Of a stretch of 64,000 bases of DNA, positions 11,499 through 52,051 are shown piece after piece. Location of the stretch: NCBI GenBank assembly GCA_000002445.1, contig CP000067.1, positions 576,001 through 640,000 of the forward strand, written 5' to 3'. The notes below the pieces were generated by a model, which did not search any database, was not told the DNA's origin, and saw only the letters and a list, made by a program, of their open reading frames with translations. The DNA is from Trypanosoma brucei (taxonomy: Eukaryota). The position numbers were made by a program, and so were the translations under genes. Position 1 is the stretch's first letter; each line of letters opens with the position of its first letter.

Positions 11499-12062
11499 AT
11501 GACGCAAAACAAGGTGAGGAAGTCCAGTTCCATCATTTCTACCATACGTGGAGCTCTCTCCTTTACACGGAAGGATGAAGGGAGTCCTGCGGGTTCGCTC
11601 GGCACCCCGCTGATACGCAGCGACCCGGTTCCCATGTGTTTCCGTCGACCCCAATCATCACATGGCTGCCCGGCTGCCAGCAATCCAACTTCTTTTACTC
11701 TTCGCTCTCATGCGATGGATGACAGGAGGGATTTACTGGAAGAGGAGGAGGCGATGTTTGGTGGATTCCGACCAAAGGAGGAGGCCCTTCGAGGGAGTTC
11801 TGGTTTTTGTATTTCATCACTTTCCTTTTCACCACAACTCGTCGCAATGAATGGGGACCTTTCACCCAGTGAGCGATGGGATGATTATGATGGTTATGAT
11901 CAATATAATAATAATAATATTAATGGTGATGATGATGATGATGATGATGATTCGAACTGTAAGTTTCATGTACACAGTGAGGAGCCGCCTGCTGGCACCC
12001 GCAAGCGAGTGGAGGAATGGATAAAGACTCAAATGCCTACCGTCAAACCAGCCGCTTCATGA
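11499..12062 (+). CDS. Hypothetical acidic low-complexity protein (187 aa) with an Asn-rich and poly-Asp tract
   Basis: The ORF starts at an ATG and is co-oriented. A (GAT)8 run encodes DDDDDDDD. There is no recognisable domain, so it could be non-coding. Confidence 0.3.
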   Translation: MTQNKVRKSSSIISTIRGALSFTRKDEGSPAGSLGTPLIRSDPVPMCFRRPQSSHGCPAASNPTSFTLRSHAMDDRRDLLEEEEAMFGGFRPKEEALRGSSGFCISSLSFSPQLVAMNGDLSPSERWDDYDGYDQYNNNNINGDDDDDDDDSNCKFHVHSEEPPAGTRKRVEEWIKTQMPTVKPAAS

Positions 12063-13994
12063 GGCGGGGGGGGGAGGGGGAAAAAAAGAAAAAAAAAGAA
12101 AGAAAGAAGGTTTTACTTTCTCCTATTACCTTGATTTCAATGAACATTGGATTCAACTTTTTCATTTGGTTTTTTTTCTTGGTTTGTGCTTGTGTTTAAA
12201 GTTTTACACCCACTCGTTATTTTCGTTTCGATTTTTTCCCCCATCCATTTCTTTTCGTTTCTACACGCTGCATAGACTGATTTATATATTTATTTATTTA
12301 TTTATTTGAATGCACGAATAAAGTAAATAAATAAATAAATTAGACGATGCTGCAAGGGTTTTTGACTTAGTTTCTTGCAGTAAATATGCAGTGATTGGTA
12401 AAAGAAAAAAAAAAGATAAATGGACAACGGGTGGGTTGTTGGGGAGTTTTTTTTTTTTGAATTAATATTATTGATTTTTTTCCACTTCTTTTTTTTTTCG
12501 TGCTGTTTCCCGTTTTCTTTTTTTTTTTTTTACTTTGGTTAACTGAGATGGTAATTGCTTTTTCTTCATTTTTTTTTAATTTTTTTTTTTTCGCGTGTGT
12601 GTGTCTGAGTGGGTTTGTGTGGCCGTGTCTCTGCCTGTTTTTTGTTTGTTTGTTTTTTTTTTTTTTTTGGTGGTGGTGGTGGTGATGGTTTAAATGAAGT
12701 GATGATCAGAAGGTGAAGGAGAAAAGTGACAAAAATGGTATAATTAATTTTAAAAAAAAGAAAAGGAGAAAAAGAAAAATTGACAACGCGTGAGAATTTG
12801 ATTGTGTGCGGGTGGGAAAATTTTTTTTTTCCTTTCCTTCCTTTTTACATGATATCAACTTTGCATCTCCATTCATGATGCCAGACACAAGAACTTATGT
12901 ATGTATGAATTAAATAATTTATATTTATTTATCTCAACATTAAAATATACGAGTACGCACATGTGTGTATTCATGATTGGAGAAAATAGAAAGGAAAGGA
13001 GGAAGTGTTTGGTTGGGTGCAAATCTTCTTCTTTCTTTCTTTCTTTCTTCTTTGTTTTTTTATATTATTATTATTATTATTTTATTTATTACTTCATTCC
13101 ATTTCCCCATCCTGTGCTTTGCCCATCTGAAGCAAACAACTGATTATTTAAGTAAAATAATAATAATATTATTGTTATTATTGGTATTGGTATTGTATTA
13201 AGATGAATTCACGGATGGAGACAAAATGAAGAGGAAAGTCGATAAGCTTCCCAGTTTGTATGCGTATTTGTCTGTTTTCGTTTTTTTTGTTTTTTGTTTT
13301 GTTATTTAGAGTGGGGAGGAGGTTTGGACGAATGAAAAAAAAATAAATGCTCTCATGCTTGCTTATACGTTGCCGCGCCCGCGTTTGTGTCTCTTTAGTT
13401 CTTAATATATTTTATGTGCTGCATTCTCTTAAGTAGTAAAGGAGAAGAGGAAGGAAAATGAAGGAAAGAGAAGAAAAGTCAAGTAAATCTTAAATTTACA
13501 GGAAAAAGAGGGAATAGGAGAACACGATAGAGTGAATAAATAAATATATCAACGGAAACGAATACATATATATATATATATATATTACAAAAGAGTCCAA
13601 CTGGAAGGTAACACGGTTGCGCGCCTATTTTGCGGATCGGTAATATATATATATATATATATATGTTTATTTGTGGATTTTGTAATTCAGTTTCCTCCTT
13701 TCCTGTGATTGTGCAATTTGGATATTTGTATTATCCATATGTGTTTGTACATTTACGCGCCCTTGTGTAATAATAGTAATTACGGTAGTATTGAGCCCCC
13801 ACACCCACATGAAGCGGCACATATATTTATTTATTTATTTTGTTTATCCCGTAGCGCTTTCTTTCGTTTTTATCTATTTTATGTTTGTAGTGGTGGTAAC
13901 GTAAGTTATTGTCACCGCTTTCCTGTGCCGTCCCGTACTGTACTGTACTGTACTGTACTGTACTGTACTGTACTGTACTGTACTAGGCCGTCTC

Positions 13995-14029
<35 letters not shown>

Positions 14030-15890
14030 TTATCTTGGAATATATTTCACACTACCAATTTCGCAGTGGCGCAATGGAAATAAGGAAAGAATTAGCGGTG
14101 TCAGTTCTATCGTCACTGTTTCAACATTTCATCACAGTCAGATGCGTCTGTGTGCAGTTTTCAATGTAGATATTTTAAGGAACAATCACCATAATAATTA
14201 AGGCGCTTTTGATGCATTAAACCGCAGAGTCACGCGGTGTCGCTCTTTTTTTTTTTTTTTGTTGTTGTTATTGTTGTGTTTGCCGAGTGTTTCACCTCTC
14301 AAATAAATTTAAAATTACACAAACGTATTTACGCATATTTATATGTGTGCGCTTTGTTTTTTGTTCCCGCATGTTGTACATACCTCCGCTTCCCTTTTGC
14401 GATTATTATTTCCATTTATTTGTGTATTAATAATATAATTAGTGTTTCGACACGTGCTTCTTTTTTTTTTTTTGCTTTCCGTTATTTTACATTATTATTG
14501 CCTCGTCAAGCGACCCGGATGGCGTTATCTGTTTTGTTGTATGTCTTCATCTATGTCTTGTCTGTTTTCTGATTATCTTAGTTTAGTTTAGTTTTTTTTT
14601 CCTGTTCATCTACTCGTCTTTCCTCTTATTTTTTCCTTCCAGCATTTGTTTAAATTATTGTTGTTTAGTATGTTTTTTTTTTCTTCTATTTTCGCTATTA
14701 CTTATCACCATTGGTTTTGGAGGCTCGTCAATTATTTATTTATTTATTTACTTTTCTGCTGTGCTATTTTATTGTTATTATTTTTTCGTTCTTCTAAATA
14801 ATTCCTTCGAAGGGGAGCGGAGAATAATGTGGGTGTCATCAGAGAATGGTGAAGGGGAACTCCACTCCTTTAAAAAAAAAAAAAGAAGAAAAGGAGAAAA
14901 AAACGGCAACACAAAACAACACATGTCGTGTTGAATTGTTTAGTTGTTTGAGTGCTTAAATTGTGGTTTCGCTGGAGCAGTGAAGAGAACAAGAAATATA
15001 TGAGCATAAATAAATAAATATATTTTTATCATGGAAGTGATGAATCATTGAGTGAAATGAGTGAGTTTTGTTTTAGTGTTGTGTTGTGTTGTGTTGTGTG
15101 CTTACCTTCTTGAGGACGCGTTTGGGAGGATTATGTTGTGAGCGGAGTTACCACTCAACTTGGAGTGGAGGTGCACATTATTAATATTATTATTTTAGTA
15201 TCTGCCTTTACATACGTGGTTCTGTGGGCGTAAATATAAATATACATGTGTGACTCAGTACAAAATGTAGGAGGCAAGTTATAAGCAGCGGGAGTGCTTG
15301 TCCATGTAACCGGCCTGTGTAACGCAGCAGTTTTCTTTTCTTTTCTTTTTTTCCTTTTCCTCTTGCTCGTCTCGTTGCAAAGAGAAATTGAAAACAAAAA
15401 AAAAAAAGAAAAATAGGAGAGCAGAAAAAAAAAAACAACAAAATTGACTTCACTGGAATGGGAATTCGTTCATTACCTTTTCATTTCATTCGTACTTCTC
15501 TTTTTTTTTTTTTGACTCCCGCGTTTCTTTCTTACCTTCCACTACTCATTCAAGGTAATTGATGTTTTACTTTCTTCTTTTTCTTTTTGTTTTTTTTTGT
15601 CAAAAATAAGTAAACCGGTCCGTGGTTTTTTTATATCTGTAGGTCGTTGATCGAAACAACCACCGCCGATCAGTTTCCGAAGTGAAGGGCGGTCTCCCCC
15701 TCCTCTTTTGGGCCCGACACGTGAATAGACAAACTCACATTCATATTTAAGGAGAACGAAAGGTGTGGCAAGAACCAACCAAACAAAACACAAGGATTAA
15801 ATAAAGGGAGAATAAAAAATAAAAAATACGGTATAGATCTTCTTCATAGAAACTATCGTCCCACTCTTCTTCCTACTGCTTACAGAAATC
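12063..15890. repeat. 3.8 kb gene-free, low-complexity microsatellite-rich intergenic tract
   Basis: No ORF with complex sequence is present. The tract contains T/C-rich and A/G-rich blocks, (TTTA)n, (TA)n, (TACTG)n, (TGTTG)n and (ATT)n. Confidence 0.8.
13936..13984. repeat. (TACTG)~10 perfect pentanucleotide tandem repeat
   Basis: Direct read: gtactgtactgtactg... x10. Confidence 0.9.
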
Positions 15891-15903
15891 AAAAGTGTGC
15901 GAC

Positions 15904-32836: not shown

Positions 32837-33799
32837 ATGGCAAAAGCCCTTAGTGTCAGTTTCAAAATAGACTCCGTACTGCAAGAGGCGTTTGGTAAAA
32901 TAGCAGCTGAGGATTCTCGTCTTCGTGCGTTGGTCATTACTGTTGAGGATGAAACAATGCGGCTCCGCGGTGCGCCGCTGGAAGCCACAGGGAACCAAAG
33001 TGATGATTTGGTCAAGCTGCGAGACGCCATTACCGAAGACGGCTTGAGTGCTGCCTTTCTAATTGTTAAACTTGCTAAAGGTGAATTTGCTCAAATATCG
33101 TTTTGCTCAGAAGATGTAAAACCAAAGGTGAGAATGATGCATTCGTCGGGGGCGATGCATCTCGCCGAAGTTTCTGGGCTGCAGAAGCCGCCCTTCAAGT
33201 TAACGAAGCGCAATGTTGAGCGCATGGATGACATCTGTGAATCACTATTTAAAAAGGAATCAGAGAGTAGTCGCGCTGAGCTCATGACGGAGGAAGAGAA
33301 ACTTCATGCTGCCGTGGCTAAGCTGGAGGTGGCTCCACCTGTTGCCGTCATGCCGGGTGTAACTGTGCCTATAAGTGAGGAGGGAGTTCTTCTGCTGAAG
33401 CGTATGGCAAATAGTGAAGTGAACGCGGTAACGTTTGCGATTGACAAGGAGAAGTTTGTGGTGGAAAAGTCACTTGAAGCTGCCGCGGCGGTGAGCGCTT
33501 TGACGGCTGCTTCACTCGCGGATGATGTTGTGGCCCTCCTTCCTGAAGGTCAGCCGCGTGTGGTGGTGATGCGGTGTCCAACCGCAGAGGCGGGGGTAAT
33601 CATCGTGAACGTGTGCCCACCCACGTGCAAACCTCGTGAACGTATGACATACTCATCTTGCAGGGCCTCGTTTGTGCAACAGGCGCAACAACATAACGTG
33701 AAGTGCGTGAGGCGAATGGAAGTTGGTGAGATGGATGAGTTTCGTGAGGCCGTGGTGGAAGCATTCGCGGAGCAAACCAGTGGAGACGGAAAACCGTAA
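32837..33799 (+). CDS. Twinfilin-like actin-monomer-binding protein (two ADF-H domains)
   Basis: The 320 aa protein has two tandem ~140 aa halves. The first half aligns loosely with the twinfilin N-terminal ADF-H domain (GKIAAEDSRLRALVITVEDETMRL...AFLIVKL...ISFCSEDVKPKVRMMHSSGAMHL vs ...YRLLKISIENEQLVV...YVLFRL...[23 protein letters not shown]). Confidence 0.5.
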   Translation: MAKALSVSFKIDSVLQEAFGKIAAEDSRLRALVITVEDETMRLRGAPLEATGNQSDDLVKLRDAITEDGLSAAFLIVKLAKGEFAQISFCSEDVKPKVRMMHSSGAMHLAEVSGLQKPPFKLTKRNVERMDDICESLFKKESESSRAELMTEEEKLHAAVAKLEVAPPVAVMPGVTVPISEEGVLLLKRMANSEVNAVTFAIDKEKFVVEKSLEAAAAVSALTAASLADDVVALLPEGQPRVVVMRCPTAEAGVIIVNVCPPTCKPRERMTYSSCRASFVQQAQQHNVKCVRRMEVGEMDEFREAVVEAFAEQTSGDGKP

Positions 33800-35656: not shown

Positions 35657-37375
35657 ATGGCGAAAGGTAATGAGGAGTGTGTTGATCTTCGTCAGTCGTG
35701 GAGACATTTCATGGTGACACCTGTAGAGCAAACACATGCGCCAGTTGGTGTTGAGCAAGCGCAGATAAAACGCGGTGAATTTACACTCCTTCAGCGTTAC
35801 CACCTGGTGGGGACAAACGCAGACGAGCAGTCGCTGTTCTTCCTATCGCTAATCAGCCCAAACGCGGAATTGTTGCGGGCGACGTGCCATCTGTTCATTC
35901 AATTGAATTTTCAGTATAGGCAACTCCTGCTTGATAACGAGGAGAAGCTGACGTTGCTTCGCTTCCATCATGAGGAGCAGTTGACAAGTTTGCTTGAGGC
36001 CTCGAATGCAGAGACACGAGATATGGTTGTGGGGTCAGATGTTACGGAACATTTCGTCCTGAAGCATCAACGTGAGTTAGAGGAACACCAGGAAGAAAAC
36101 CGCTTTTCCGAAAACACCCTCCTCTTAGAGCTCCGCCAAAATTTCTTTACTTTCCTGAAGGCATCTGCACAGGGTACGATGGATTCACTTGAAGGGGAGC
36201 CTGGGTGGTTGAAGCTGCGACAAAACGATGAGCAGCACAAACGAGGGATGAATATTGGATATTTTTGCGACGGTCGTGTTCCAGTACGTGTGGTGGAGCT
36301 GCCAAACCTTCTTGGGAGGAACTTAACTGGTTTTAGGCCAAAGGATCCACTACTTCGGCCGATTGTAGTCGATATCTCACCGCTGACGTCCTTGCGCGAA
36401 TGCCTTCATTGTCTTTACTCGGAGGAGCGAGATTCTGTTTTAGCTGTGGAGGAGCACCTGCTTCGCTTGTCGCGACAAGTCCATGCGGTGTTGTTATTCA
36501 TTGGTCTCGAGGACGAGGCAATGCGCATACTTTCCAGCAATTATGCGGAACTCTTCCTCGACCAAGAAAGCATCTCCCCGTCAAGGCCAGCGCCATGTTT
36601 CGTGCCTCTGCGCCATCACCGCTGCTTGAGGGTTATGCTTTCCACTCAACTGTGGGGAGCTAATATTATCCTCCTGTGGACACCACAAGCTGCCAATGGA
36701 CGCCATAACTGCGAACCGCTCATTGTAGAAGATGCCCTAAATTTAGCTCTTTCTTGGAATGCCGACATGTTTACTGTTGCCGTGCTAGGCTCTGCAGCGC
36801 GTTCCCATGCAACTTCCTCTCTGCACACCGAGGATCCGACACGTGAAATACCAATGGAGGTTCTGCGCCAGCTGCAGTGCGGTGTAGGTCGGTTGGTATT
36901 TGAGGCTGCAACCATGAAAGCCTCTGCTGTATGGGGTGGCTCCGAAGAAACGGAGCAGCGGCAGCAAAAGAACAATTGGGATGCCGGTCAGACAGTCCCT
37001 CAACTTGTGTCGGCCAGGGAGCCGCAATTGGAGTTCAACTTGCCCATGTCTATACGTGTGTTCCTTCCTACCACTATGGCCTCGCTAGATGAAAGTGGTG
37101 ATCGCAGTGAGTCGTTGGAGCTCTCCCTTCAAGGAGGTGGTGGCGCTGCTGGACGGGTGGAGCGTCACGGGTTTAGGCAAGATGAAGATGTAGGTGATGT
37201 GAGTGTTATTGATTCATCGTCGCTCACAGATGTGCACAGTATAAGGCATACCACCAACAGTAGTTTCTCCAGCAACATCGGCAGCCGGAGAGAAACAGAT
37301 CGCCGTGGTCGACGGCAAATGACTTTTGGAAGATTGCTTGCATACAACTTTGGTGAGTCGGCCGTACTCCGATAA
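35657..37375 (+). CDS. Hypothetical protein (572 aa); no recognisable domain
   Basis: A long complex ORF with an ATG start, co-oriented with its neighbours. Confidence 0.5.
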   Translation: MAKGNEECVDLRQSWRHFMVTPVEQTHAPVGVEQAQIKRGEFTLLQRYHLVGTNADEQSLFFLSLISPNAELLRATCHLFIQLNFQYRQLLLDNEEKLTLLRFHHEEQLTSLLEASNAETRDMVVGSDVTEHFVLKHQRELEEHQEENRFSENTLLLELRQNFFTFLKASAQGTMDSLEGEPGWLKLRQNDEQHKRGMNIGYFCDGRVPVRVVELPNLLGRNLTGFRPKDPLLRPIVVDISPLTSLRECLHCLYSEERDSVLAVEEHLLRLSRQVHAVLLFIGLEDEAMRILSSNYAELFLDQESISPSRPAPCFVPLRHHRCLRVMLSTQLWGANIILLWTPQAANGRHNCEPLIVEDALNLALSWNADMFTVAVLGSAARSHATSSLHTEDPTREIPMEVLRQLQCGVGRLVFEAATMKASAVWGGSEETEQRQQKNNWDAGQTVPQLVSAREPQLEFNLPMSIRVFLPTTMASLDESGDRSESLELSLQGGGGAAGRVERHGFRQDEDVGDVSVIDSSSLTDVHSIRHTTNSSFSSNIGSRRETDRRGRRQMTFGRLLAYNFGESAVLR

Positions 37376-37830
37376 AACGAATTGCCGGCTCCATTTCTAT
37401 GTGCTTGCCGTTACATTTCCTCCCTAAATATTTCACGTAAACCTGCACTCGAACGCACAATTTTTTTCTTCTTTGTGCTCAATCATTGTTTTGCTTGCTG
37501 GGAAGTGCTTTGTGTGTGTCTGTCTCTCTTTCTCTCAGTAAGTTTTGCGACATTGGCGTGTACAGTGGTTGCACTGCCACCCCCATTCACCAACGACAGC
37601 GTTCGTTTTGCTCGTTCATCTGCCTTTTCGGATGTGGATTTGTTTATGGCACAGTGATACCTCCAATAGGGGCATTTCGTTAATAATCTCTTTTTATTTA
37701 TTTTCTTTCCTTTCTCCTTCTTTGTTGACCAACGTAAAGTAACAAGTAGCAAACAGAGGGACGCATAGTGTCACATCGCGCGGCTGAAGAAAACAGTAAA
37801 ATAACAGCATAACGTGTTTTACTGCACCTC

Positions 37831-39705
37831 ATGTCGTCACACGGCAAATTAGTAAGGAAAGCTGAAGATCTTCAAGAGGACTTGTCGTGGGATTCCCATA
37901 TTAAACATGTGCTAATAGAACTCGAAAAGATTTATTTTCAGCGCATTAGGCCAATAGAGGTGAAGTTTGACTACGATATGTGCTGTCCTTCGTGGTTTGG
38001 GGAATCCATGGTGCAAAAGAAGCCATTCATCACGTTCTTAGGACCCTTCTCAGCGGGAAAGTCTACGTTCATAAATTACCTTTTACAAGGTAATCTATTA
38101 TCCACAGGTCCTCAACCTGTGACGGATCGGTTCACCGTAATTTCCCATGCGAAAGACGTACAAAAAATACCTGGCCGCGTTTTGATGGCTGACTCCAAGC
38201 AGCCTTTTCGTGGCCTCAATCAATTTGGTGGTGTATTCGGAGAGGTATTGGAGGGTATTACACATCCTCACCCCATCCTGCAATCTGTTACACTCATTGA
38301 TACACCGGGTGTTTTGGAAACCGCGGGGAATGCTCACAGTCGTCGATATGACTACGTTAACGCTTGTCGGTGGTTTGTGGAGAAAAGCGACCTTGTGTTT
38401 GTCATGTTTGACCCAACGAAACTAGATTCTGGGGAGGAGTTACGTGCTGTGTTTCAGCAAGCCCTGAGAGGACATGAAAGTAAAATCCGTATTATTTTGA
38501 ACAAGGCTGATACGGTGGAGCCACAAGAACTTATGCGCGTGTATGGCGCATTGTTTTGGAATCTCTCAGCCCTTGTCGCTACGACAGAGCCACCGCGCGT
38601 TTTCATTTCAAGTTTCTGGGAACAGCCGTACCGCATGGGCACAGATCATGAACTATTTACGGAAGAAAAGGCGGACCTTATTTACCATATAACAACGGTA
38701 GTCCCCATGCAGGCCCTTGACCGACGTGTGGCTTCTGTGCTTCAGCGCGCAACTCGAGTAATTGCGTTTGCGATTCTCTGCGCCACTTATAAAACCAAGA
38801 TGCCCTCGCTGTTTGGTAAGGCTAAGGCAAGGAAACAGTTTATTGAAGATCTACCACAGATATGTGAAGACCTGGCGAACAAGTACCGCTGCAGTGTTGC
38901 TGATTTCCCGAAGAAAGAGGTACTGGAGAATTTTTTTTCGAGGGCTAAAACTAGTGACTTCTTTGACATGAATCAACTGCTGAAACGGAAGTGGATAGAG
39001 CTTATGAGGATCACAGTAGACCGGGACCTTCCAATGTTGCTGAAGCCCCTTGAAGAATCGGCCGTTGTTGATCCCAATGATCGTAAGCATGCCCTCCTTC
39101 TCCAGCGAGAATACTTTAAAAGGATGTCCATGGAAGCCCATGGTCAGCTGTTTGTCGAGGACGTTTGTCAGAACTTAGGTACTGTGCCCATGATTCAGAG
39201 CCAGTTCACGGATCGGCCGGCCATCTGTGATGTACCCGCGAATAACACGTCGATGCAACTGCAGAGCACAGCTCCACCCAACGGCGCAGGTGGAAACGTT
39301 AACCAGGAACAACTTGCGGTGATGATGCAAATGATGCAAACGATGATGGCCGCCCAGCAAGGGCAGAAGCCGAGTCCACAACAGCAAGGGGTTCCGTTGA
39401 TCTCACAACAAGCTTACGCACCCCAGCAGGTGCAACCAGAGCAGGGAGGGCCGCTGTTTCCGCCGTCGCAGCAGATCTCTACAACCACGCAACAGATGAA
39501 TCCGTACCAACAGATGCAAACAATGGATACACTTCAACAGGGCGTACCACAGTTTCCGCCGTCGCAGGTCTGTATCGAAATGCCACAGTCTAACCCATAT
39601 CAGCAGGGGCAACCAACATTTATGCCTTACGGAGGTTTCCCATCGGATCCCCAAGGACAGGGACTTCCACAGAATCCACAGCAGCAGGGACAATTGTTTC
39701 CTTAG
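37831..39705 (+). CDS. EHD/RME-1-family dynamin-like ATPase with a Q/P-rich low-complexity C-terminal tail
   Basis: [24 protein letters not shown] matches EHD1 [62 protein letters not shown] (vs [28 protein letters not shown]) and [19 protein letters not shown] (vs EMPSVFGKDNKKKELVNNL) also match. The last ~150 aa are Gln/Pro-rich. Confidence 0.75.
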   Translation: [624 protein letters not shown]

Positions 39706-40566
39706 TTGTTTGCTTGTGGTATCCGCAATGACATGCGCGTCTGGTAAGTGCTCAATAGTAATAAGTCCTGTACCTCTTTCAAGACAACTTGGTGCAATAA
39801 TGGCTTCTCCTCCCCTGGTCATAATGAACGTGTACCAAAGGTGATGAGACTGCCCAAAAAGAAAAAAAGAAAAAAGAGGCAGTATAAATATGGCATTACA
39901 GCTGTTTTTTCCCCCCCTATGCAGCAGCTTTCTACCATTGTGTAAGGAAGATCGGAAATGCGAGATCTTCACGCAAGTGTATGCGGTCGTGATGAAGTGG
40001 ATGCGATAGGGAGGGTTTCCCACTCTCCCCAATAACAACACTGTGAAAAGGTGTTTTAACTTGCTCTAATTTCTCTTTGCAACTTTCTACGAGCAGCCGT
40101 ACGCTGTTTCCGTGGGCGTGTAAAATTTGCGTTTCTGATGGGTTTCAACCATATATTTCACTTGCTGAGCATCGACTCGCCTTTATTACCATCTATTACC
40201 TCAACCATTCTGCTGGCGTTGTTGTGTTAATGTTTCACTTTTTTTTTTTTGTCGGCACCGAATGAGACGCGCTCTTCGAGGCATTAAAGGTCATTTCCTT
40301 TTCTCTCCTTTTTTTTCTTCACAACCTTTGCACATGCACATATATATTATATCATTATTATTTTTTTTTTGCATTGGTGGCGCGTGTACAAACGGTATTC
40401 TCCTTTATGTGAACATGGGAATAAGGAAACTAAGCTCCCCCGATTGTCCGCTACTGTAACGGGTGGACCCTCACCAGAGGAACGGGAGGGGAGGGACGAG
40501 ACGGTTGGGCGCGAGAAAAAACAAAAAAGAAACGATATATAAATTCCTTCGTAGCACCGTGAGTCA

Positions 40567-42795
40567 ATGGAAGGTACAAATAGCGGTAATGAAGGAAGTA
40601 GCGGGGGACAACGATTTGTGAAACCGAGATGGGAAAACCACTCAACATTGCCCACCGCCGTAACAAATAACAGCAACAACGACAAGAATAGTGGTGGTGG
40701 GGGTGGACATTCCACACGTGAGGAATCTTCGGCTATGTTGCCTAAACTAAACCCATTTACGAAGAAGCCATACACACCGCAATATTACAAGATCCTTGCT
40801 CAAAGGACTACGCTTCCCGTGTACCAGAGAGCAAAGGAGCTTACTCAAAATGTGCGTGACCACCAGGTTGTACTCTTTGTGGGTGAAACAGGAAGTGGTA
40901 AAACAACGCAAGTGCCACAGTTCATATCAGAGATGGAATTACCAGGGGTTGTTGTTTGTACACAACCGCGTCGTATCGCTGCAATGTCTATTGCTGTGCG
41001 GGTTGCCGCTGAAATGGATGTGCAGTTGGGTGAGGAGGTAGGTTACCGCGTGCGATTTAAGTCTATGGTATCTGATAAGACAAAATTGCTTTATATGACA
41101 GATGGTATGCTTTTGCGTGAGGCCTTTTCGGACCGCGATTTGTCACGGATTTCAGTAGTTGTTGTGGATGAGGCTCATGAACGTACGGTCGAAACGGATG
41201 TGCTTCTTGGGGTGTTGCGTTTGCTTATGCAACGCCGTCAAGACTTTAGGCTCGTTGTCATGTCTGCGACGCTTGACATGGAGAGGTTTCAGGCGTACTT
41301 TCCGAAAGCACCACTCATACAGGTGGAGGGCCGCATGTATGATGTTCAAGTGCTTTACTCTACAGTACCGGTGAAGGATTATGTGGAAGCTTGCGTGGAA
41401 CGTGTGTGTGATATCCACTTGAACGAACCACCTGGCGATATCTTGTGTTTTCTCACCGGTGAGGCAGAAATTGAAAGAGCTGTTTCGCGCACGAAGTTAA
41501 AACTTGAGCATCTTCTTGCCGATGATGGAAACACGGTGTCTAGCAATGGTGCCCAGTTGCTTGCAAGGGTCTTACCACTGTATGGTTCCTTGGGCGTCGA
41601 TGACCAGGGGCGTGTGTTTTCTAACGCTGGCAAGAACACGCGGAAAATTATTTTTGCAACAAATATTGCCGAAACATCGTTAACTATCGACGGGATTGTA
41701 TACGTGGTGGATTGTGGATACCACAAACAGAGTTTGTACAACGCGGAAGCCCGCGTCGACTACCTATTACCCGCTGTTATCAGTAAAGCTTCGGCAGAGC
41801 AGCGGAAAGGTCGTGCGGGCCGTACTCGTCCAGGGAAGTGTTTCCGACTTTTTCAACAGAGTGACTTTTCCTCTTTCCCTAATCAAACTCACCCGGAGGT
41901 GCTGCGTTCCAACATGATCAACACTGTACTTTTGCTGCTGAAACTTGATGTTGCCAATCCATACCAGTTTGCCTTCATTGATCCCCCATCGCAGCAGAGT
42001 GTTATGGATGCGTATTGTCAACTCAGTCTTTTCGGGGCTGTAGACGACGACTTACAACTCACGGACTTTGGGCGTCTGATGGCCGATTTTCCCGTGGACG
42101 CCTGTTTGGCCCGTGTGCTTATGCGTTCCGCGCAATACGGCTGTGCAGCAGACGCAGCGGTTATAGTAGCGATGTTAGAAACGAGGAATGTGCTGGTGCG
42201 CCCAGCATCCCGTGGGATCGAGGCGGAGCAGAAACACGTGATGTTTCGTCATCCTGATGGCGACCATTTGACTCTCTTTAAGGTTTTTCACGCTTTTTGG
42301 CGTAGCGGCCAGTCCTCGCAGTACTGCTTCGATAACTTCCTTGCCTATCAAGCGCTGCAGCAAGCGGTGAATGTGTATACTCAGCTTACCAAGTTGATGA
42401 AGAAAAAAAACATTTGTTTTGTGTCCACGTATGATGACAGGTCGGGAAAACTGGACTCCGTGGCGATCCGGAAAGCGGTACTTGAGGGATTCTTCACTCA
42501 AGTGGCGTATAAACCACCCGGTGGAGAGCTGTACAAAACTGTAAGGGACTCGCAGATGGTTGCACTTCACCGCCACTCGTTCCCTTCAATGAGCGGATCC
42601 CCGTCTTGGATTGTATACGACCGACTTGAGGTGCAGGGGCAAGGTGGTACGTTTATCCGGGTGGCGTCTGCAATTGAGCCGGAGTGGTTGCTCGAAGTTA
42701 GCGACTTTTTTAATGACACGTCAGAGTTTGGGGATGGTGAGATCTGCCGCATCCTCCAGGACCTGAAAGCGGGGGGCACAACACAAAAGGGATAA
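40567..42795 (+). CDS. DEAH-box ATP-dependent RNA helicase, Prp43/DHX15-like
   Basis: Motifs GETGSGKTTQVPQF, VVVDEAHERTVETDVL, SATLD, FLTGEAEIE, TNIAETSLTIDGIVYVVD and QRKGRAGRTRPGKCFRL are present. The 742 aa length and a C-terminal OB/ratchet region fit Prp43. Confidence 0.85.
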   Translation: MEGTNSGNEGSSGGQRFVKPRWENHSTLPTAVTNNSNNDKNSGGGGGHSTREESSAMLPKLNPFTKKPYTPQYYKILAQRTTLPVYQRAKELTQNVRDHQVVLFVGETGSGKTTQVPQFISEMELPGVVVCTQPRRIAAMSIAVRVAAEMDVQLGEEVGYRVRFKSMVSDKTKLLYMTDGMLLREAFSDRDLSRISVVVVDEAHERTVETDVLLGVLRLLMQRRQDFRLVVMSATLDMERFQAYFPKAPLIQVEGRMYDVQVLYSTVPVKDYVEACVERVCDIHLNEPPGDILCFLTGEAEIERAVSRTKLKLEHLLADDGNTVSSNGAQLLARVLPLYGSLGVDDQGRVFSNAGKNTRKIIFATNIAETSLTIDGIVYVVDCGYHKQSLYNAEARVDYLLPAVISKASAEQRKGRAGRTRPGKCFRLFQQSDFSSFPNQTHPEVLRSNMINTVLLLLKLDVANPYQFAFIDPPSQQSVMDAYCQLSLFGAVDDDLQLTDFGRLMADFPVDACLARVLMRSAQYGCAADAAVIVAMLETRNVLVRPASRGIEAEQKHVMFRHPDGDHLTLFKVFHAFWRSGQSSQYCFDNFLAYQALQQAVNVYTQLTKLMKKKNICFVSTYDDRSGKLDSVAIRKAVLEGFFTQVAYKPPGGELYKTVRDSQMVALHRHSFPSMSGSPSWIVYDRLEVQGQGGTFIRVASAIEPEWLLEVSDFFNDTSEFGDGEICRILQDLKAGGTTQKG

Positions 42796-48461: not shown

Positions 48462-48604
48462 TACAGATATACGTTTGCACGTACACGTAACGAACAGGTC
48501 GAGGGAGACCTTTAAGTATATCGAGTAAGCGTACCTGAGATACAAAAGCAGAAAAAAAAAAGAGAGTCCGAAGTGGAGGTAACGTACCGCGGAAGGTGAG
48601 AGCC

Positions 48605-51600
48605 ATGGGGTTTTGGCCGCGTTCCTTACTTGCCAGAGACTATGAGGTACCGAAGCGTCCCATTTTCCACCTCGAAGGATGGGATGTGGTTCAGGGAACA
48701 GACGCAGCCACTTACGTTTCGGGTGTTGTGCCCGACGGCGTTATGTACGGTACCAACGGGTGTTTAGGCGTACGGCATCATTGTGAGTCGGAAACGGTAG
48801 GGTACCGAACAAGTCTTTACATGAACGGCGTCTACCACAGTGCTCCCCTTAACGCGTACGTTGACAGTGAAGCGCTGCCAGAAGAGATTCAAGTTGGTGC
48901 CACCGTATGTGAAGTGACTCTCGACTGCTTCATTGATGGAGAGTCTGGGACCCTTGGCGAGGCACCATCGCAGAGGTTGAACTTGCGAGACGCCACGTAT
49001 TCTAGCACCAGCGTGGATGTTGTCAGCGGTGACGGTGGGCTTACTTTTGACTCCACATATCGCCAGGTTGTATCTTTGAACGAGTTGGACCTCTGGTGCG
49101 CTGAGACTGTATGCACCAACTTTTCCATCGACGCCTTGTCGAGTGGAACAGATTTTGCTTCACAAAACAATTCCGAGTCCTCAGCAAAACACATCGAAGA
49201 GGACATGTACAGCACTGAGTCCTCTACTTATTCTGTTGTTTTTATCGTTTCTGTTACTGTATCGCTGGATGACTGGTATCTTGTGGGTGGTGACTCCACG
49301 GAAAAACTGCTCATCGAATCCACCACGTCCGGCATATTGGTAGGCACTGAAACGGAAGCCTCATGCACAGTAGAATGCGGCGACCGAACATACAAGATAG
49401 TCCCGGAGCAACAAGTGAGAAATGTTCCGGAGGACTTTTATACGCCCCACCGTGATTGCGGCTTCTCCCATGCAGCGTACGTAAGCGAAAGCGAGAGTGA
49501 GCACCCACACTCTTCCCGTGCCGCTTGGAGAGGCACCTCCGGCTCGCGGGGTCGTGTATGCTTCCAAAAACAGTTCCCCTATACAATTACCCCCGACAAC
49601 GTGCCTCAAAAGGTAACGTTGAGCTTTCATGCACGACATCACAATGGGGGGCTTCCACTTTCGCGGCCGTTTCCGTCTTTTGCGGATGTCGTGGCCGAGC
49701 AACGTCTCGTGTTGGACAATTTCTGGAGTACCTTTTGGATTGATATCCAGCGACAGGACGAACTGCCGCCTAATCGCATGAAACTTGGCCTAATATTTAA
49801 TTCGTTTCGGTTGTTCTGTGTTTCTCGCAACCTGCAAAACGGCCTGCCACAGGCTGGCTGCTCAACAACTAAGAGTAATTTGCTGTATGACCTCCAACAG
49901 TACGTTTACCATGGCATCTACTATATTCTCACGTCGCCATCAAGTGCGCTTGCGCTCCTTCGCAGCCTCTATTGTATGCTTTCTCAGGCTCGAATGAACG
50001 CCCTTCGTCTATCGCTTGAACACGGCGCCGTATACCCACGCAGAACGATCACAGGGACGGAGTGTTGGCATTGTAGTACCCTCAACAACGCCCGGTTTCA
50101 CGTCAATGCTGAGGTGGGCTATATAATAAATATGTATTTTTCTGCCGTGGAAAGCATTGCCACGAGCGATCGCTTGTGGCTGTTGGAGCTCATGTTAGAG
50201 ACAGCACGTGTTTGGTCGCAAGTTGGGGAGTGGGTGGAAAATGAAGGTGTGTTTCGTTTGGACAATATTGCCGGCCCGGATGAGTACAACGGTAACGCGG
50301 CAGGGAACTTTTACGTTCACCTCTCGGCAAAGCTACATTTGAGAAATGCTTACAATCTTTACGAGGAACAACAAAAAATCGTTGGTGATGAAGCTATATT
50401 TTGTCTGCTGCAGGGAATTAACATGGACATATCGGAACTTGAAAACTTCAGGACCATCTCCAACGAGATTGTTGTGCGACGTGACAACCACCTTGATGTT
50501 TTTTTGGTGCATGATCACTTTGACACACTGAAAGAATGGAAGGGGGAGCGTCCAAAGCACCCCTTGTCCATGAACTACCACCCTCTTGCAATATACCGTC
50601 ATAAAGTTGTGAATATTCCCGAAGTCCTTCTCGGCATGTTGTTGTACCCAGCCGAGTTTGAGCGAAAGGATTTGCTGCAGAACTTGTCCTACTACGCCCC
50701 GCTCTGCACGCATGACTCGGCGGAGTCATTGGCTATTGTTGCGTGTGTGGAGTTCCGAGCGAACGGTCGCTTCACTCACGGCATGCCGCTACTATGTTCA
50801 TTGGCTAGCTTGGATTTAGATAACATCATTTACGCTGCCGACGAAGGACTTGATTTTGGTGCCATGTCCGCAACGTGGATTGCCGTTGTCATGGGTATTG
50901 GTGGTGTTAAGATCACGTCTCGTAGTCTGCATTTAGACCCTTCCTTTCCCGCTGGGTTGAGTGTACTTAGTTTCACTCTGCACTGGCGTGGGGCGACCCT
51001 GCGGACGCGTGTAGAGAAGGACTGCATAACGTATGACCTGATGGCAGGGGATAGCATACGATTTATTCATGCCAGCAGACATCGCATCCATTTGCATTCC
51101 GGATGCAGGCAGAGCGTCGCCCGCAAGCAAGTCGCTATACCGCAGCCCATGAGCAGCATGCATGGGGAATTTGCCGGTGCCATTTTTTTGTGCGAGACGC
51201 TTTTTGACAGCGTCATGGAGATGAACTTCATTGCGTGGGGCAAGACGCTGGAGTCACTCTATGAGAACTATCGGGCGCTGCACCTCCGCCACATCCCACC
51301 GCTCACAGCGGAAGAGTTCGTCGATAAAGTTATTTATCAGGCAGAGCACCGTGAGATTGCCTTCAGTGGGATTCACAATGTGCTACTGGACCGTGGAATA
51401 GACCTCCCACTCGGTTCACCCGACGATGCCGAAATTGTAGAGACGCGTTATGGTTTAGCCAACGCCAAGGTGGCAGAGTTGGAGGAGATGTGGTCTCGCG
51501 AGGCACCGTGTGTGAATCCAGCGATGCGGGCATTGCTGCGCGATTTGGAGGATAATGGAATACCGCTTGCGCTTGTGTCGTACAGTCGAACCCTTAAGAC

Positions 51601-52051
51601 ACTGATGCAGTATCATCCAGAGGAGGCACTGCGTTTCCTCACGGCTATTGATGGCGATGAGGCGCATGAGCGGCACATCAAGAGCCGACCGCATCTCGAC
51701 ATTTTCGTTCGTGCAGCCGAAAAGATCCACGTGGAGCCGAGTCGTTGTCTGATCTTCTCTTCTCACATCGACAGTAACTTCAAAGTGTCGGAGCTCTCTT
51801 ACTTCCGCATGGTGTTTGATGTGGAGGATCCCTTTGCGGCGCGGGTGCGGGGATCCAAAACCTGCGAGTATCCCTCCATGCTGAGGCCCGCAGCGGCTGA
51901 TGGGGATGTGCGGCCACTTGTGATTAACTTGAAGCGGGATAAGTTTCCCACAACTGTAGACGGGTTGGAAAGCATTTTATGCGGCCCAGTGGCGTCGGGT
52001 TCTGATCTCGCCGCTGCGGGCGATGCTCCGCCAAGTGATCCCTGCAGTTAA
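48605..52051 (+). CDS. Glycoside hydrolase family 65-like disaccharide phosphorylase/hydrolase with a fused C-terminal HAD (beta-phosphoglucomutase)-like domain
   Basis: The N-terminus IFHLEGWDVVQGTDAA...VMYGTNGCLGVRHHCES...GYRTSLYMNGVY parallels the GH65 N-terminal domain of maltose phosphorylase (WNVITHTF...SLGNGYMGMRG...GIYLGGVW). The C-terminus carries HAD motif II (IPLALVSYSRT), motif III (KSRPHLDIFVRAAEKIHVEPSRCLIF) and a motif IV region. The ORF-track start is GTG, so I moved it to the ATG at 48605. Confidence 0.65.
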   Translation: MGFWPRSLLARDYEVPKRPIFHLEGWDVVQGTDAATYVSGVVPDGVMYGTNGCLGVRHHCESETVGYRTSLYMNGVYHSAPLNAYVDSEALPEEIQVGATVCEVTLDCFIDGESGTLGEAPSQRLNLRDATYSSTSVDVVSGDGGLTFDSTYRQVVSLNELDLWCAETVCTNFSIDALSSGTDFASQNNSESSAKHIEEDMYSTESSTYSVVFIVSVTVSLDDWYLVGGDSTEKLLIESTTSGILVGTETEASCTVECGDRTYKIVPEQQVRNVPEDFYTPHRDCGFSHAAYVSESESEHPHSSRAAWRGTSGSRGRVCFQKQFPYTITPDNVPQKVTLSFHARHHNGGLPLSRPFPSFADVVAEQRLVLDNFWSTFWIDIQRQDELPPNRMKLGLIFNSFRLFCVSRNLQNGLPQAGCSTTKSNLLYDLQQYVYHGIYYILTSPSSALALLRSLYCMLSQARMNALRLSLEHGAVYPRRTITGTECWHCSTLNNARFHVNAEVGYIINMYFSAVESIATSDRLWLLELMLETARVWSQVGEWVENEGVFRLDNIAGPDEYNGNAAGNFYVHLSAKLHLRNAYNLYEEQQKIVGDEAIFCLLQGINMDISELENFRTISNEIVVRRDNHLDVFLVHDHFDTLKEWKGERPKHPLSMNYHPLAIYRHKVVNIPEVLLGMLLYPAEFERKDLLQNLSYYAPLCTHDSAESLAIVACVEFRANGRFTHGMPLLCSLASLDLDNIIYAADEGLDFGAMSATWIAVVMGIGGVKITSRSLHLDPSFPAGLSVLSFTLHWRGATLRTRVEKDCITYDLMAGDSIRFIHASRHRIHLHSGCRQSVARKQVAIPQPMSSMHGEFAGAIFLCETLFDSVMEMNFIAWGKTLESLYENYRALHLRHIPPLTAEEFVDKVIYQAEHREIAFSGIHNVLLDRGIDLPLGSPDDAEIVETRYGLANAKVAELEEMWSREAPCVNPAMRALLRDLEDNGIPLALVSYSRTLKTLMQYHPEEALRFLTAIDGDEAHERHIKSRPHLDIFVRAAEKIHVEPSRCLIFSSHIDSNFKVSELSYFRMVFDVEDPFAARVRGSKTCEYPSMLRPAAADGDVRPLVINLKRDKFPTTVDGLESILCGPVASGSDLAAAGDAPPSDPCS

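What the first reader, a model, noticed from the sequence alone, without database searches (positions are those of the whole stretch)
37831..39705. EHD-family membrane-remodelling ATPase that lacks the EH domain and instead ends in a Q/P-rich prion-like tail
The G-domain and helical domain align closely with mammalian EHD1 (P-loop, switch regions, the [10 protein letters not shown]...[12 protein letters not shown] block). Canonical EHDs end in an EH domain that binds NPF motifs. Here the last ~150 residues are a Gln/Pro/Tyr-rich low-complexity region ([31 protein letters not shown]... with repeated GVPQFPPSQ and NPYQQ motifs). Note the NPY/NPF-like motifs sit within the tail itself. This may represent a lineage-specific rewiring of EHD recruitment (in cis rather than via an EH domain) or a phase-separating tail.
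Basis: partly seen in the sequence, partly recalled or inferred. Interest (0 to 1): 0.5.

Follow-up and report, generated by a model that had tools for sequence, protein, structure and literature searches.

The report
EH-less EHD-like ATPase of T. brucei
This is the annotated Trypanosoma brucei gene Tb927.4.2380, a membrane-remodelling EHD-type enzyme with no EH domain, as in all its euglenozoan relatives, and a disordered tail holding one conserved Met/Gln-rich helix plus a species-group-specific Gln/Pro-rich extension; it is real, mostly ordinary and not prion-like.

Summary
Window 37831-39705 (+) is one intact 624-aa ORF with an EHD-type G domain and helical domain (EHD2 E=4e-71; Foldseek EHD4 E=9e-30), no EH domain, and a tail with 46% Gln+Pro. 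The tail is not an artefact: the other frames are closed, and independent assemblies at 99.5% identity keep the ORF.

The interpretation needs correcting.
- The window is T. brucei TREU927 chromosome 4 and the gene is Tb927.4.2380, already annotated "sarcoplasmic reticulum glycoprotein, putative".
- Lack of an EH domain is not lineage-specific rewiring in this species. None of 117 kinetoplastid, diplonemid and euglenid homologues has one, and the EHD/sarcalumenin relationship is published.
- The protein has no signal peptide and keeps the EHD membrane-binding tip. It is therefore probably cytosolic and EHD-like, not a luminal sarcalumenin.
- The conserved tail element is a Met/Gln-rich helix (aa 492-509). 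It occurs in 78/106 euglenozoan homologues and 0/103 other family members.
- The P/Q/aromatic extension (aa 510-624) was seen only in Trypanozoon. It arose by internal duplication and decay of a second Met/Gln motif, and holds every amino-acid difference between strains.
- "Prion-like" and "NPF in cis" are unsupported.

Interest is low to moderate.

The parts
37831..39705 (+). Complete CDS of Tb927.4.2380 (624 aa plus stop); protein AAZ10829.1 / XP_844388.1, annotated 'sarcoplasmic reticulum glycoprotein, putative'
   Evidence: The ORF is listed. The exact sequence is in NCBI for T. brucei TREU927 and T. equiperdum. TrypTag primers for Tb927.4.2370 end at 37372 and those for Tb927.4.2390 end at 42792, so this ORF is Tb927.4.2380.
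38029..38505 (+). Dynamin-type G domain (aa 67-225). It holds the P-loop GPFSAGKS (aa 71-78), switch I T98, switch II DTPG (aa 157-160) and G4 NKAD (aa 224-227).
   Evidence: Pfam Dynamin_N 9e-17. These motif residues are invariant in 77 homologues. AF2 pLDDT is above 90.
38722..39039 (+). EHD helical domain (Pfam DUF5600, aa 298-403)
   Evidence: Pfam 1.1e-13. It aligns to the EHD2 helical domain. The best Foldseek match is EHD4 5mtv, E=8.7e-30.
38800..38835 (+). Putative membrane-binding tip of the helical domain, [12 protein letters not shown] (aa 324-335)
   Evidence: K330 is invariant, and P325, F328, G329 and K332 are nearly invariant, in 77 homologues. The tip aligns with EHD 'MPALFGKES' but not with sarcalumenin 'MTFFSDGEL'. 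Its role in lipid binding is taken from what is known of EHD2, not tested here.
39070..39138 (+). Conserved post-helical linker: DPN (aa 414-416) followed by a helix at aa 415-436 ([23 protein letters not shown])
   Evidence: P415 is invariant and Y428 nearly invariant. AF2 predicts a helix at 415-436 with pLDDT of about 72. The DP[RN] position aligns with the NPF of a canonical EHD (P0118) and of the Leishmania paralogue.
39160..39303 (+). Poorly conserved, disordered spacer (aa 444-491)
   Evidence: AF2 pLDDT below 50. The alignment is gappy here.
39304..39357 (+). Met/Gln-rich helix [18 protein letters not shown] (aa 492-509), the clade-wide tail motif
   Evidence: AF2 predicts a helix at 492-509 with pLDDT of about 75. 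The motif is found in 78/106 euglenozoan homologues and 0/103 other family representatives. TRF finds a 9-nt period ATGATGCAA at 39322-39345. The equivalent motifs in the T. cruzi orthologue are also predicted as helices.
39358..39702 (+). P/Q/aromatic-rich disordered extension (aa 510-624), seen only in Trypanozoon sequences
   Evidence: AF2 pLDDT is below 50 over almost all of 512-624. Q is 27% and P 18%. The other named orthologues lack this extension. All amino-acid differences between strains (positions 528, 540, 550) lie here.
39442..39471 (+). Repeat D1, reference copy ([10 protein letters not shown])
   Evidence: the repeat finder family D1.
39538..39567 (+). Repeat D1, second copy ([10 protein letters not shown]), 83% identical at the DNA level
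39658..39687 (+). Repeat D1, degenerate third copy ([10 protein letters not shown]), 63% identical
39499..39525 (+). First NPY motif followed by QQMQTM (aa 557-565), a decayed second Met/Gln motif
   Evidence: The segment 39508-39525 is 83% identical to the QMMQTM part of the intact motif (family D2). It aligns with the second motif (TPDQMSMMMQMMQN) of T. cruzi-clade orthologues.
39592..39600 (+). Second NPY motif (aa 588-590)

Best explanation
The ORF is a real, transcribed T. brucei gene, Tb927.4.2380. It encodes a cytosolic, EHD-type member of the dynamin superfamily.

Shown here:
- The nucleotide-binding G domain, the helical domain and the helical-domain tip (MPxxFGKxKAK) are intact and conserved.
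- There is no signal peptide and no transmembrane segment.
- The protein belongs to a Euglenozoa-wide clade in which no member has an EH domain.
- After the helical domain come a conserved DP-x-D-R-K linker helix and a disordered Gln-rich tail carrying one or two short Met/Gln-rich helices.
- In T. brucei the first Met/Gln helix is intact (aa 492-509). The second has decayed ([18 protein letters not shown]).
- The distal tail has expanded by internal duplication into an almost uncharged P/Q/G segment with 9 spaced aromatic residues. This segment varies between strains.

Inferred, not shown:
- By analogy with EHD1-4, the core dimerises, binds membranes through the helical-domain tips, and uses nucleotide-dependent oligomerisation to tubulate or sever endosomal or flagellar-pocket-derived membranes.
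- The Met/Gln helix, not the P/Q extension, is the element that took over the partner-recruiting and/or auto-regulatory role played by the EH domain elsewhere.
- The P/Q extension is at most a weak multivalent or spacer region under relaxed constraint.
- Higher mRNA in bloodstream forms fits a role in that stage's very active endocytic recycling.
For: Identity and reality of the gene.
- ORF; exact protein in NCBI for TREU927; locus tag fixed by the flanking TrypTag primers.
- Independent 2.4-kb Logan contigs are 99.5% identical with the ORF intact. Of 8 nucleotide differences in the CDS, 6 are synonymous.
- Only frame 0 of the tail is open, and its Gln codons are mixed (13 CAA, 20 CAG).

EHD core.
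- Pfam; EHD2 E=4e-71; AF2 core pLDDT above 90; Foldseek EHD4/EHD2 at E of 1e-30 to 1e-23.
- P-loop, T98, DTPG and NKAD are invariant. W243 is invariant, and F126 and F132 nearly invariant. In the tip, K330 is invariant and P325, F328, G329 and K332 nearly so.

Cytosolic rather than luminal.
- There is no hydrophobic N-terminus, in contrast to vertebrate sarcalumenins.
- The membrane tip is shared with EHD but not with sarcalumenin.

Clade-wide lack of an EH domain.
- 0/77 by Pfam and 0/117 by the local HMM.
- Euglenozoa form a separate cluster in the NJ tree.

Met/Gln helix.
- Present in 78/106 euglenozoan homologues and 0/103 others.
- Predicted helical in both T. brucei and T. cruzi proteins.

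Origin of the tail.
- Internal repeats and a decayed second motif.
- All amino-acid variation between strains is in the tail.

Expression.
- Tb927.4.2380 is 3.4-5.2-fold up in bloodstream forms (PMC2443814) and is listed at 2.0-fold in a second study (PMC2771046).
Against: - No experimental localisation, phenotype or biochemistry was found for this protein. The stored TrypTag table is truncated and lacks its row.
- Nucleotide specificity is unknown. The residue after NKAD is Thr here and Ser/Thr across the clade, where EHD2 has Met.
- The NPF of the EHD 'KPFxxxNPF' loop is NQF here, so oligomer contacts may differ.
- The Met/Gln helix is only weakly amphipathic (muH 0.13). It matches no known domain, so its proposed role is pure inference.
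- Bootstrap support for euglenozoan monophyly in my NJ tree is only 52/100, and the tree is unrooted.
Confidence: 0.7

Rival explanations
1. The database name is right. The protein is a sarcalumenin-like glycoprotein of the ER or Ca2+-store lumen that buffers Ca2+ or regulates SERCA.
For: It is annotated 'sarcoplasmic reticulum glycoprotein / sarcalumenin'. Vertebrate sarcalumenins are slightly closer in the core than EH-bearing EHDs: 37% versus 33.5% mean identity, and 262-281 bits versus about 250 bits. PMC7016017 proposes that metazoan sarcalumenin derives from the kinetoplastid lineage.
Against: There is no signal peptide or TM segment, whereas frog and other sarcalumenins have an obvious one. 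There is no long acidic N-terminal region, since the core starts at about aa 20. The EHD lipid-binding tip is conserved here but not in sarcalumenin. The sarcalumenin-like proteins and the Euglenozoa form separate clusters in the tree.
Confidence: 0.05
2. The Q/P tail is a prion-like or phase-separating module whose NPY/NPF-like motifs replace EH-domain recruitment 'in cis'.
For: The tail is disordered and nearly uncharged. By direct count in aa 510-624 it has 9 spaced aromatic residues (4 Y, 5 F) in a Q/P/G context. NPYQQ and G-x-P-x-FPPSQ each occur twice. From general knowledge, P/Q-rich disordered regions are common in endocytic proteins.
Against: The protein has no EH domain to read such motifs. 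NPY is not the canonical NPF ligand. The NPY motifs and the whole extension are absent from T. vivax, the T. cruzi clade and Leishmania orthologues. The 18% Pro and roughly 3% Asn are unlike amyloid-type prion domains. All non-synonymous differences between strains fall here, which suggests weak constraint.
Confidence: 0.12
3. The P/Q extension (aa 510-624) is a functionless, neutrally drifting low-complexity appendix left by duplication and decay of the ancestral second Met/Gln motif. Only the core and the first Met/Gln helix matter.
For: Five of the 8 nucleotide differences between strains, and all amino-acid differences, lie in codons 527-571. Repeats are degenerate. Other trypanosomes lack the extension. 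One T. b. equiperdum assembly has a +1 frameshift at codon 613 that replaces the last 12 residues.
Against: The 115-codon frame is kept open with no indels in TREU927, T. b. gambiense, T. equiperdum OVI and the Logan strain. Three of the 5 nucleotide differences in codons 527-571 are synonymous. These strains are very closely related, so this is a weak test.
Confidence: 0.3
4. The tail is an assembly or frameshift artefact that hides a genuine EH domain or a shorter C-terminus.
For: One related assembly (RHW72898.1, 670 aa) does carry a frameshift near the 3' end.
Against: The other two forward frames contain stop codons and encode nothing recognisable. The 624-aa product is the same in four independent sources. 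The conserved Met/Gln motif is in frame. No EH domain exists in any euglenozoan homologue.
Confidence: 0.02

Closest known systems
Mammalian EHD1-4 / C. elegans RME-1 (Eps15-homology-domain-containing ATPases; structures 2qpt, 4cid, 5mtv, 7sox)
   Same: It has the same G domain plus helical domain fold. The sequence match covers aa 24-407 (E=4e-71), and Foldseek gives E=9e-30. The P-loop, switch I Thr, DTPG, NKAD and the Trp of the dimer helix (W243) are conserved, as are the two Phe of the KPFxxxNPF loop and the basic/Phe membrane-binding tip. It is probably cytosolic.
   Different: It has no EH domain at either end. The loop NPF is NQF. The linker position that is NPF or GPF in EHDs is DPN. 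The residue after NKAD is Thr, not Met. The EHD_N match is below threshold. The C-terminus is a disordered Q-rich tail with a Met/Gln helix.
Vertebrate sarcalumenin (SRL)
   Same: It is an EH-less member of the same EHD-like GTPase family. Its core is slightly more similar to the T. brucei protein than EHDs are (39-43% versus 34-37% identity). This is the source of the database name.
   Different: Sarcalumenin has a signal peptide and a long N-terminal extension before the GTPase domain, and it is luminal. It lacks the EHD-type lipid-binding tip. It has no Met/Gln tail motif (0/103 non-euglenozoan representatives).
Second kinetoplastid paralogue (T. brucei 'sarcalumenin precursor', P0106; probably Tb927.10.14910)
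   Same: It has the same architecture: an EHD core, no EH domain, the DP-x linker and one Met/Gln motif followed by poly-Q. It belongs to the same euglenozoan clade.
   Different: It is only about 42% identical and 517 aa long, with no P/Q extension. Leishmania members of this paralogue group keep an NPF at the linker position.
Met-rich STI1/DP-type motifs of ubiquilins, SGTA and Hop (a resemblance recalled from memory)
   Same: These are also short helices rich in Met and Gln, often N-capped by [DN]-P. An example from the homologues here is 'NPAMMAQMMQ'.
   Different: The resemblance is not supported by any test. No Pfam STI1 hit was found in 77 homologues, and a profile of the motif had no PDB match (best E=0.79).

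Membership tests
EHD proteins (EH-domain-containing dynamin-like ATPases) | Dynamin-type G domain with P-loop, switch I/II and NKxD | tested here: met
   Pfam Dynamin_N 9e-17. GPFSAGKS, T98, DTPG and NKAD are invariant in 77 homologues.
EHD proteins (EH-domain-containing dynamin-like ATPases) | EHD-specific helical domain (Pfam DUF5600) with a basic/Phe membrane-binding tip | tested here: met
   DUF5600 1.1e-13. Top fold matches are EHD4 and EHD2. K330 is invariant and P325, F328, G329 and K332 nearly invariant.
EHD proteins (EH-domain-containing dynamin-like ATPases) | An EH (Eps15-homology, EF-hand-type) domain, C-terminal in animals or N-terminal in plants | tested here: not met
   No EH/EF-hand hit at E<=10. 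The tail alone has no hit. A local EH HMM finds 43 EH-bearing relatives but not this protein or any of 117 euglenozoan homologues. The alternative frames are closed.
EHD proteins (EH-domain-containing dynamin-like ATPases) | KPFxxxNPF loop in the G domain and a GPF/NPF linker motif that engage the EH domain | tested here: not met
   The loop reads QPFRGLNQF and the linker reads DPN, so both Asn-Pro-Phe motifs are lost. The two loop Phe residues and linker Pro415 are conserved.
EHD proteins (EH-domain-containing dynamin-like ATPases) | Binds and hydrolyses ATP rather than GTP; nucleotide-dependent oligomerisation on membranes | not testable with these tools
   Sequence shows only that the nucleotide-binding motifs are intact. 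The residue after NKAD differs from EHD2 (Thr versus Met).
Sarcalumenin | EHD-like GTPase core without an EH domain | tested here: met
   Sarcalumenin-like long proteins are the best non-euglenozoan hits.
Sarcalumenin | N-terminal signal peptide giving a location in the SR/ER lumen | tested here: not met
   The maximum 10-aa Kyte-Doolittle hydropathy in the first 40 aa is 1.14, against 2.8-3.0 for vertebrate sarcalumenins. No TM-like segment was found.
Sarcalumenin | Long N-terminal (acidic, Ca2+-binding) region preceding the GTPase domain | tested here: not met
   The core starts at about aa 20 here. In the sarcalumenin-like representatives it starts at residue 400-790.
Euglenozoan EH-less EHD-like clade (defined here) | EHD core, conserved DP-x-D-R-K...Y linker helix, and a Q-rich disordered tail with at least one Met/Gln-rich helix | tested here: met
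   P415 is invariant and Y428 nearly invariant. The motif is at aa 492-509, predicted helical, and occurs in 78/106 clade members against 0/103 others.
Prion-like (Q/N-rich amyloid-forming) domain | Q/N-rich, Pro-poor, low-charge disordered segment able to form self-templating aggregates | tested here: inconclusive
   The tail is disordered and low in charge, and 27% Q. But it is 18% Pro and holds only 3 Asn in 115 aa (direct count). No dedicated predictor was available, and aggregation cannot be tested here.
STI1 / DP Met-rich helical domain | Match to the STI1 profile or to solved STI1/DP structures | tested here: not met
   No STI1 hit in 77 homologues at E<=1. The motif profile against PDB gave a best E of 0.79, to an unrelated designed protein.

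The most novel reading that the evidence does not exclude
The short Met/Gln-rich helix ([T/D/N]-P-[E/D]-Q-M-x-M-M-M-Q-M-M-Q followed by poly-Q) is conserved from euglenids and diplonemids to trypanosomes in both paralogue lineages, and is absent from all other EHD/sarcalumenin relatives. It could be an undescribed interaction or auto-regulatory module that functionally replaced the EH domain in Euglenozoa. The Trypanozoon-specific aromatic P/Q extension could add multivalent, condensate-type assembly at the bloodstream-form endosomal or flagellar-pocket membranes.
Probability: 0.2. Interest if true: 0.5.

Novelty: new variant of a known kind. Interest (0 to 1): 0.28.

Why it matters
EHD proteins are central to endocytic recycling in animals. 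Bloodstream T. brucei depends on extremely fast endocytosis and recycling of its surface coat.

If Tb927.4.2380 and its paralogue are the trypanosome EHD equivalents, they work without the EH-NPF recruitment code that organises EHD function elsewhere. The conserved Met/Gln helix would then be the place to look for the replacement code.

The "sarcoplasmic reticulum glycoprotein" label on this gene is probably misleading, and that affects how the gene is read in omics studies.

The gene itself is annotated. Its EH-less architecture is visible in public domain annotations, and the family relationship is published. The P/Q tail looks weakly constrained. The finding is therefore a modest refinement, not a discovery.

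Tried and rejected
- Hidden EH domain or frameshift: the other frames are closed, and neither the tail nor the local EH HMM gives a hit. Rejected.
- STI1/ubiquilin-like Met-rich domain for the Met/Gln motif: no Pfam STI1 hit in 77 homologues and no PDB hit for a 44-sequence motif profile. Unsupported; kept only as a remembered resemblance.
- Classical amphipathic membrane helix for aa 492-509: the Eisenberg hydrophobic moment is only 0.13. Not supported.
- Homology search with the tail alone (aa 430-624): it returned nothing, not even the protein itself. It is therefore uninformative about how far the extension is distributed, for example in T. congolense.
- Microsatellite slippage (a pure CAG tract) as the origin of the tail: Gln codons are mixed (13 CAA, 20 CAG), and TRF finds only the 9-nt MMQ period. 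Rejected in favour of older, degenerate duplications.
- Direct localisation or phenotype data: the stored TrypTag supplementary table is truncated and lacks Tb927.4.2380. The RIT-seq paper is not held. The ribosome-profiling supplements hold no entry.
- The first bootstrap attempt timed out and was redone with numpy distances. My a-priori 'sarcalumenin-like' label set was not monophyletic, because one unlabelled sequence nests within it.
- Sister-group relations among EHD, sarcalumenin and Euglenozoa cannot be resolved from an unrooted NJ tree.
Full report
**1. The observation**

The ORF at 37831..39705 (+) exists exactly as described and encodes 624 aa.
- Pfam finds Dynamin_N at aa 67-225 (E=9e-17), the EHD helical domain DUF5600 at aa 298-403 (1e-13), and a sub-threshold EHD_N hit. 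No EH or EF-hand family appears even at E<=10.
- The C-terminal 201 residues scanned alone hit nothing.
- Against PDB sequences, aa 24-407 align to EHD2 residues 25-404 with E=4e-71.
- An AlphaFold2 model has pLDDT above 90 across aa 18-408. Its best structural matches are EHD4 and EHD2 (E=9e-30 to 2e-23), far ahead of mitofusins and bacterial dynamins.
- The tail is compositionally extreme. Residues 521-624 are 27% Q and 18% P, and QQGVP, FPPSQ and NPYQQ each occur twice.
- The maximum Q+P per 100 aa is 0.46, against <=0.20 in the 19 other long ORFs of the window.

**2. Is the tail an artefact?**

No.
- The other two forward frames over the tail contain stop codons, and so do all three reverse frames.
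- Two independently assembled Logan contigs (2.4 kb, window 37779-40204) are 99.5% identical and keep the 624-aa ORF. They show 8 nucleotide differences in the CDS, of which 6 are synonymous.
- The same 624-aa product is recorded for T. b. brucei TREU927, T. equiperdum OVI and T. b. gambiense. The last differs by A528P, G540E and S550C.
- A 670-aa T. b. equiperdum entry results from a +1 frameshift at codon 613 in that assembly, not in the window.
- Gln codons in the tail are mixed (13 CAA, 20 CAG), so this is not a slippage tract.

**3. What and where it is**

- Exact-sequence look-ups place the window on T. brucei brucei TREU927 chromosome 4. The protein is AAZ10829.1 / XP_844388.1, "sarcoplasmic reticulum glycoprotein, putative".
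- TrypTag tagging primers for Tb927.4.2370 match the window up to 37372, and those for Tb927.4.2390 up to 42792. The ORF between them is therefore Tb927.4.2380.
- Two microarray studies list Tb927.4.2380 under an older name, "HSR1-related GTP-binding protein". One reports it as 3.4-5.2-fold up-regulated in bloodstream forms, together with Rab11 and other trafficking GTPases. It adds that no experimental information exists for the protein (PMC2443814). The second lists it at 2.0-fold (PMC2771046).
- It is the only GTPase-type ORF in the window.
- I found no functional or localisation study. The stored TrypTag table is truncated and lacks its row.

**4. Lack of an EH domain is a clade feature**

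- The closest relatives are kinetoplastid proteins: T. grayi 71%, T. theileri 68%, T. cruzi 65% and T. vivax 57% identity over the core. Diplonemid and euglenid proteins follow.
- None of 77 such homologues has an EH domain by Pfam.
- An EH HMM built locally detects 43 EH-bearing proteins among more distant relatives, but none among 117 euglenozoan sequences.
- An exhaustive representative search finds 3137 relatives. After the euglenozoan hits come sarcalumenin-type long proteins (39-43% identity, domain in the C-terminal half), then canonical EHDs (34-37%).
- An NJ tree of the core gives three clusters: EH-bearing EHDs, sarcalumenin-like proteins, and Euglenozoa. The last contains two kinetoplastid paralogue lineages, and the T. 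brucei protein pairs with T. vivax.
- Support for euglenozoan monophyly is only 52/100 and the tree is unrooted.
- Schäffer et al. 2020 (PMC7016017) already describe EHD and sarcalumenin as one bacterial-derived family and propose a kinetoplastid origin of metazoan sarcalumenin.
- A 2026 EHD review does not mention these protist proteins (PMC13282721).

**5. EHD-like or sarcalumenin-like in function?**

- The T. brucei protein has no signal peptide and no TM segment, unlike the vertebrate sarcalumenins, which have obvious signal peptides.
- Its core starts at about residue 20, not after a long N-terminal region.
- The helical-domain tip [12 protein letters not shown] is conserved across the clade: K330 is invariant, and P325, F328, G329 and K332 are nearly so. 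It matches the EHD tip but not the corresponding sarcalumenin segment.
- From published EHD2 work (my knowledge, not tested here), this tip binds lipids, and the invariant W243 lies in the dimer interface.
- The database name is therefore probably misleading. The protein most likely behaves as a cytosolic, peripheral-membrane EHD-type mechano-enzyme.
- Features tied to the EH domain are gone. The G-domain loop KPFxxxNPF reads QPFRGLNQF. The linker position that is NPF in a canonical EHD, and in the Leishmania paralogue, reads DPN.
- Nucleotide specificity cannot be inferred. The residue following NKAD is Thr, whereas EHD2 has Met.

**6. Anatomy of the tail**

- After the helical domain there is a conserved DP-x-D-R-K...Q-R-x-Y segment, predicted helical at aa 415-436 with pLDDT of about 72. 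P415 is invariant. A disordered spacer follows at aa 444-491.
- Then comes the one conserved tail element: a Met/Gln-rich helix, [18 protein letters not shown] (aa 492-509, pLDDT of about 75).
- The motif has the consensus [T/D/N]-P-[E/D]-Q-M-x-M-M-M-Q-M-M-Q followed by poly-Q. It occurs one to five times in 78 of 106 euglenozoan homologues of at least 480 aa, in both paralogue lineages. It occurs in 0 of 103 other EHD/sarcalumenin representatives.
- In the T. cruzi orthologue both copies are predicted as isolated helices (489-505 and 526-539) in a disordered tail.
- T. brucei has one intact copy. The position of the second aligns with [22 protein letters not shown]. At the DNA level, QQMQTM (39508-39525) is 83% identical to the QMMQTM part of the first motif. 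The second motif has therefore decayed.
- The rest of aa 510-624 consists of degenerate duplications: [20 protein letters not shown] and [10 protein letters not shown] at 100%, 83% and 63% DNA identity, and [10 protein letters not shown] with [10 protein letters not shown].
- This segment is predicted disordered. By direct count it holds 5 charged and 9 aromatic residues in 115.
- It is absent from T. vivax, the T. cruzi clade and Leishmania orthologues, and it holds every amino-acid difference between strains.

**7. What the tail probably does**

- The Met/Gln helix matches no Pfam family and no solved structure. Its resemblance to STI1/ubiquilin Met-rich motifs, recalled from memory, did not survive testing. 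It is only weakly amphipathic (muH 0.13).
- Its strict restriction to the clade that lacks the EH domain, and its position where the EH domain would sit, make it the best candidate for a replacement partner-binding or auto-regulatory element. This is inference only.
The motifs are NPY, and they are Trypanozoon-specific.
- "Prion-like" is doubtful given 18% Pro and about 3% Asn. A weakly sticky disordered region is not excluded.
- A tail-only homology search was uninformative, since it did not even recover the query. Whether T. congolense shares the extension remains open.

**8. Verdict**

- This is an annotated but experimentally uncharacterised member of a Euglenozoa-wide, EH-less branch of the EHD/sarcalumenin family.
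- It is most likely a cytosolic membrane-remodelling NTPase of the endocytic or recycling system. That assignment is inferred from the conserved core and tip, the absence of a signal peptide, and the bloodstream-form up-regulation.
- The part not previously described, as far as the searched literature shows, is the clade-specific Met/Gln helix.
- Interest is low to moderate. The novelty is at most a variant of a known kind.

Noticed in passing
window 35657-37375 (+): The upstream neighbour Tb927.4.2370 is a 572-aa protein with no Pfam domain. In the TrypTag supplementary table its row carries the localisation term 'endocytic'. An uncharacterised endocytic-system protein therefore sits directly next to the EHD-like gene in the same transcription unit.
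   Followed up: partly
window 40567-42795 (+): This is a Prp22-type DEAH helicase (Tb927.4.2390; its TrypTag row reads 'nucleoplasm'). The window ORF is 742 aa from the ATG at 40567, matching the T. b. gambiense and T. equiperdum entries. The TREU927 entry is 686 aa, so the annotated start codons differ by 56 residues.
   Followed up: no
window about 39667-39669 (codon 613 of the CDS): The T. b. equiperdum entry RHW72898.1 (670 aa) matches the +1 frame of the window from codon 613 onward. This is a single-base frameshift in that assembly. It replaces the last 12 residues and reads through by 46 residues. It is probably a sequencing error, but it could be a real variant.
   Followed up: partly
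window 39403-40041 (-): A 212-aa antisense ORF overlaps the tail and the 3' UTR. It is most likely a by-product of the CAG/CCG-rich coding strand and not a gene.
   Followed up: no
P0106 (T. b. gambiense chr 10 protein, 517 aa), not in the window: T. brucei has a second EH-less EHD-like paralogue, about 42% identical, with one Met/Gln motif and no P/Q extension. It is probably Tb927.10.14910 'sarcalumenin'. That gene has higher translational efficiency in bloodstream forms (log2 1.6-2.1; PMC4210626). The link between P0106 and the locus tag is not verified.
   Followed up: partly
window 48596-52051 (+): A 1151-aa ORF carries glycoside hydrolase family 65 domains (N-terminal, catalytic and C-terminal). 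This is a mostly bacterial-type phosphorylase/hydrolase family.
   Followed up: no
window 32837-33799 (+): A 320-aa ORF has two cofilin/ADF-homology stretches, a twinfilin-like architecture. It is an actin regulator lying three genes upstream of the EHD-like gene.
   Followed up: no
window 8451-15895: This 7.4-kb stretch has no ORF of 250 aa or more. Only ORFs of 124-187 aa are present. All 20 long ORFs of the window are on the + strand, as expected for one polycistronic unit.
   Followed up: no
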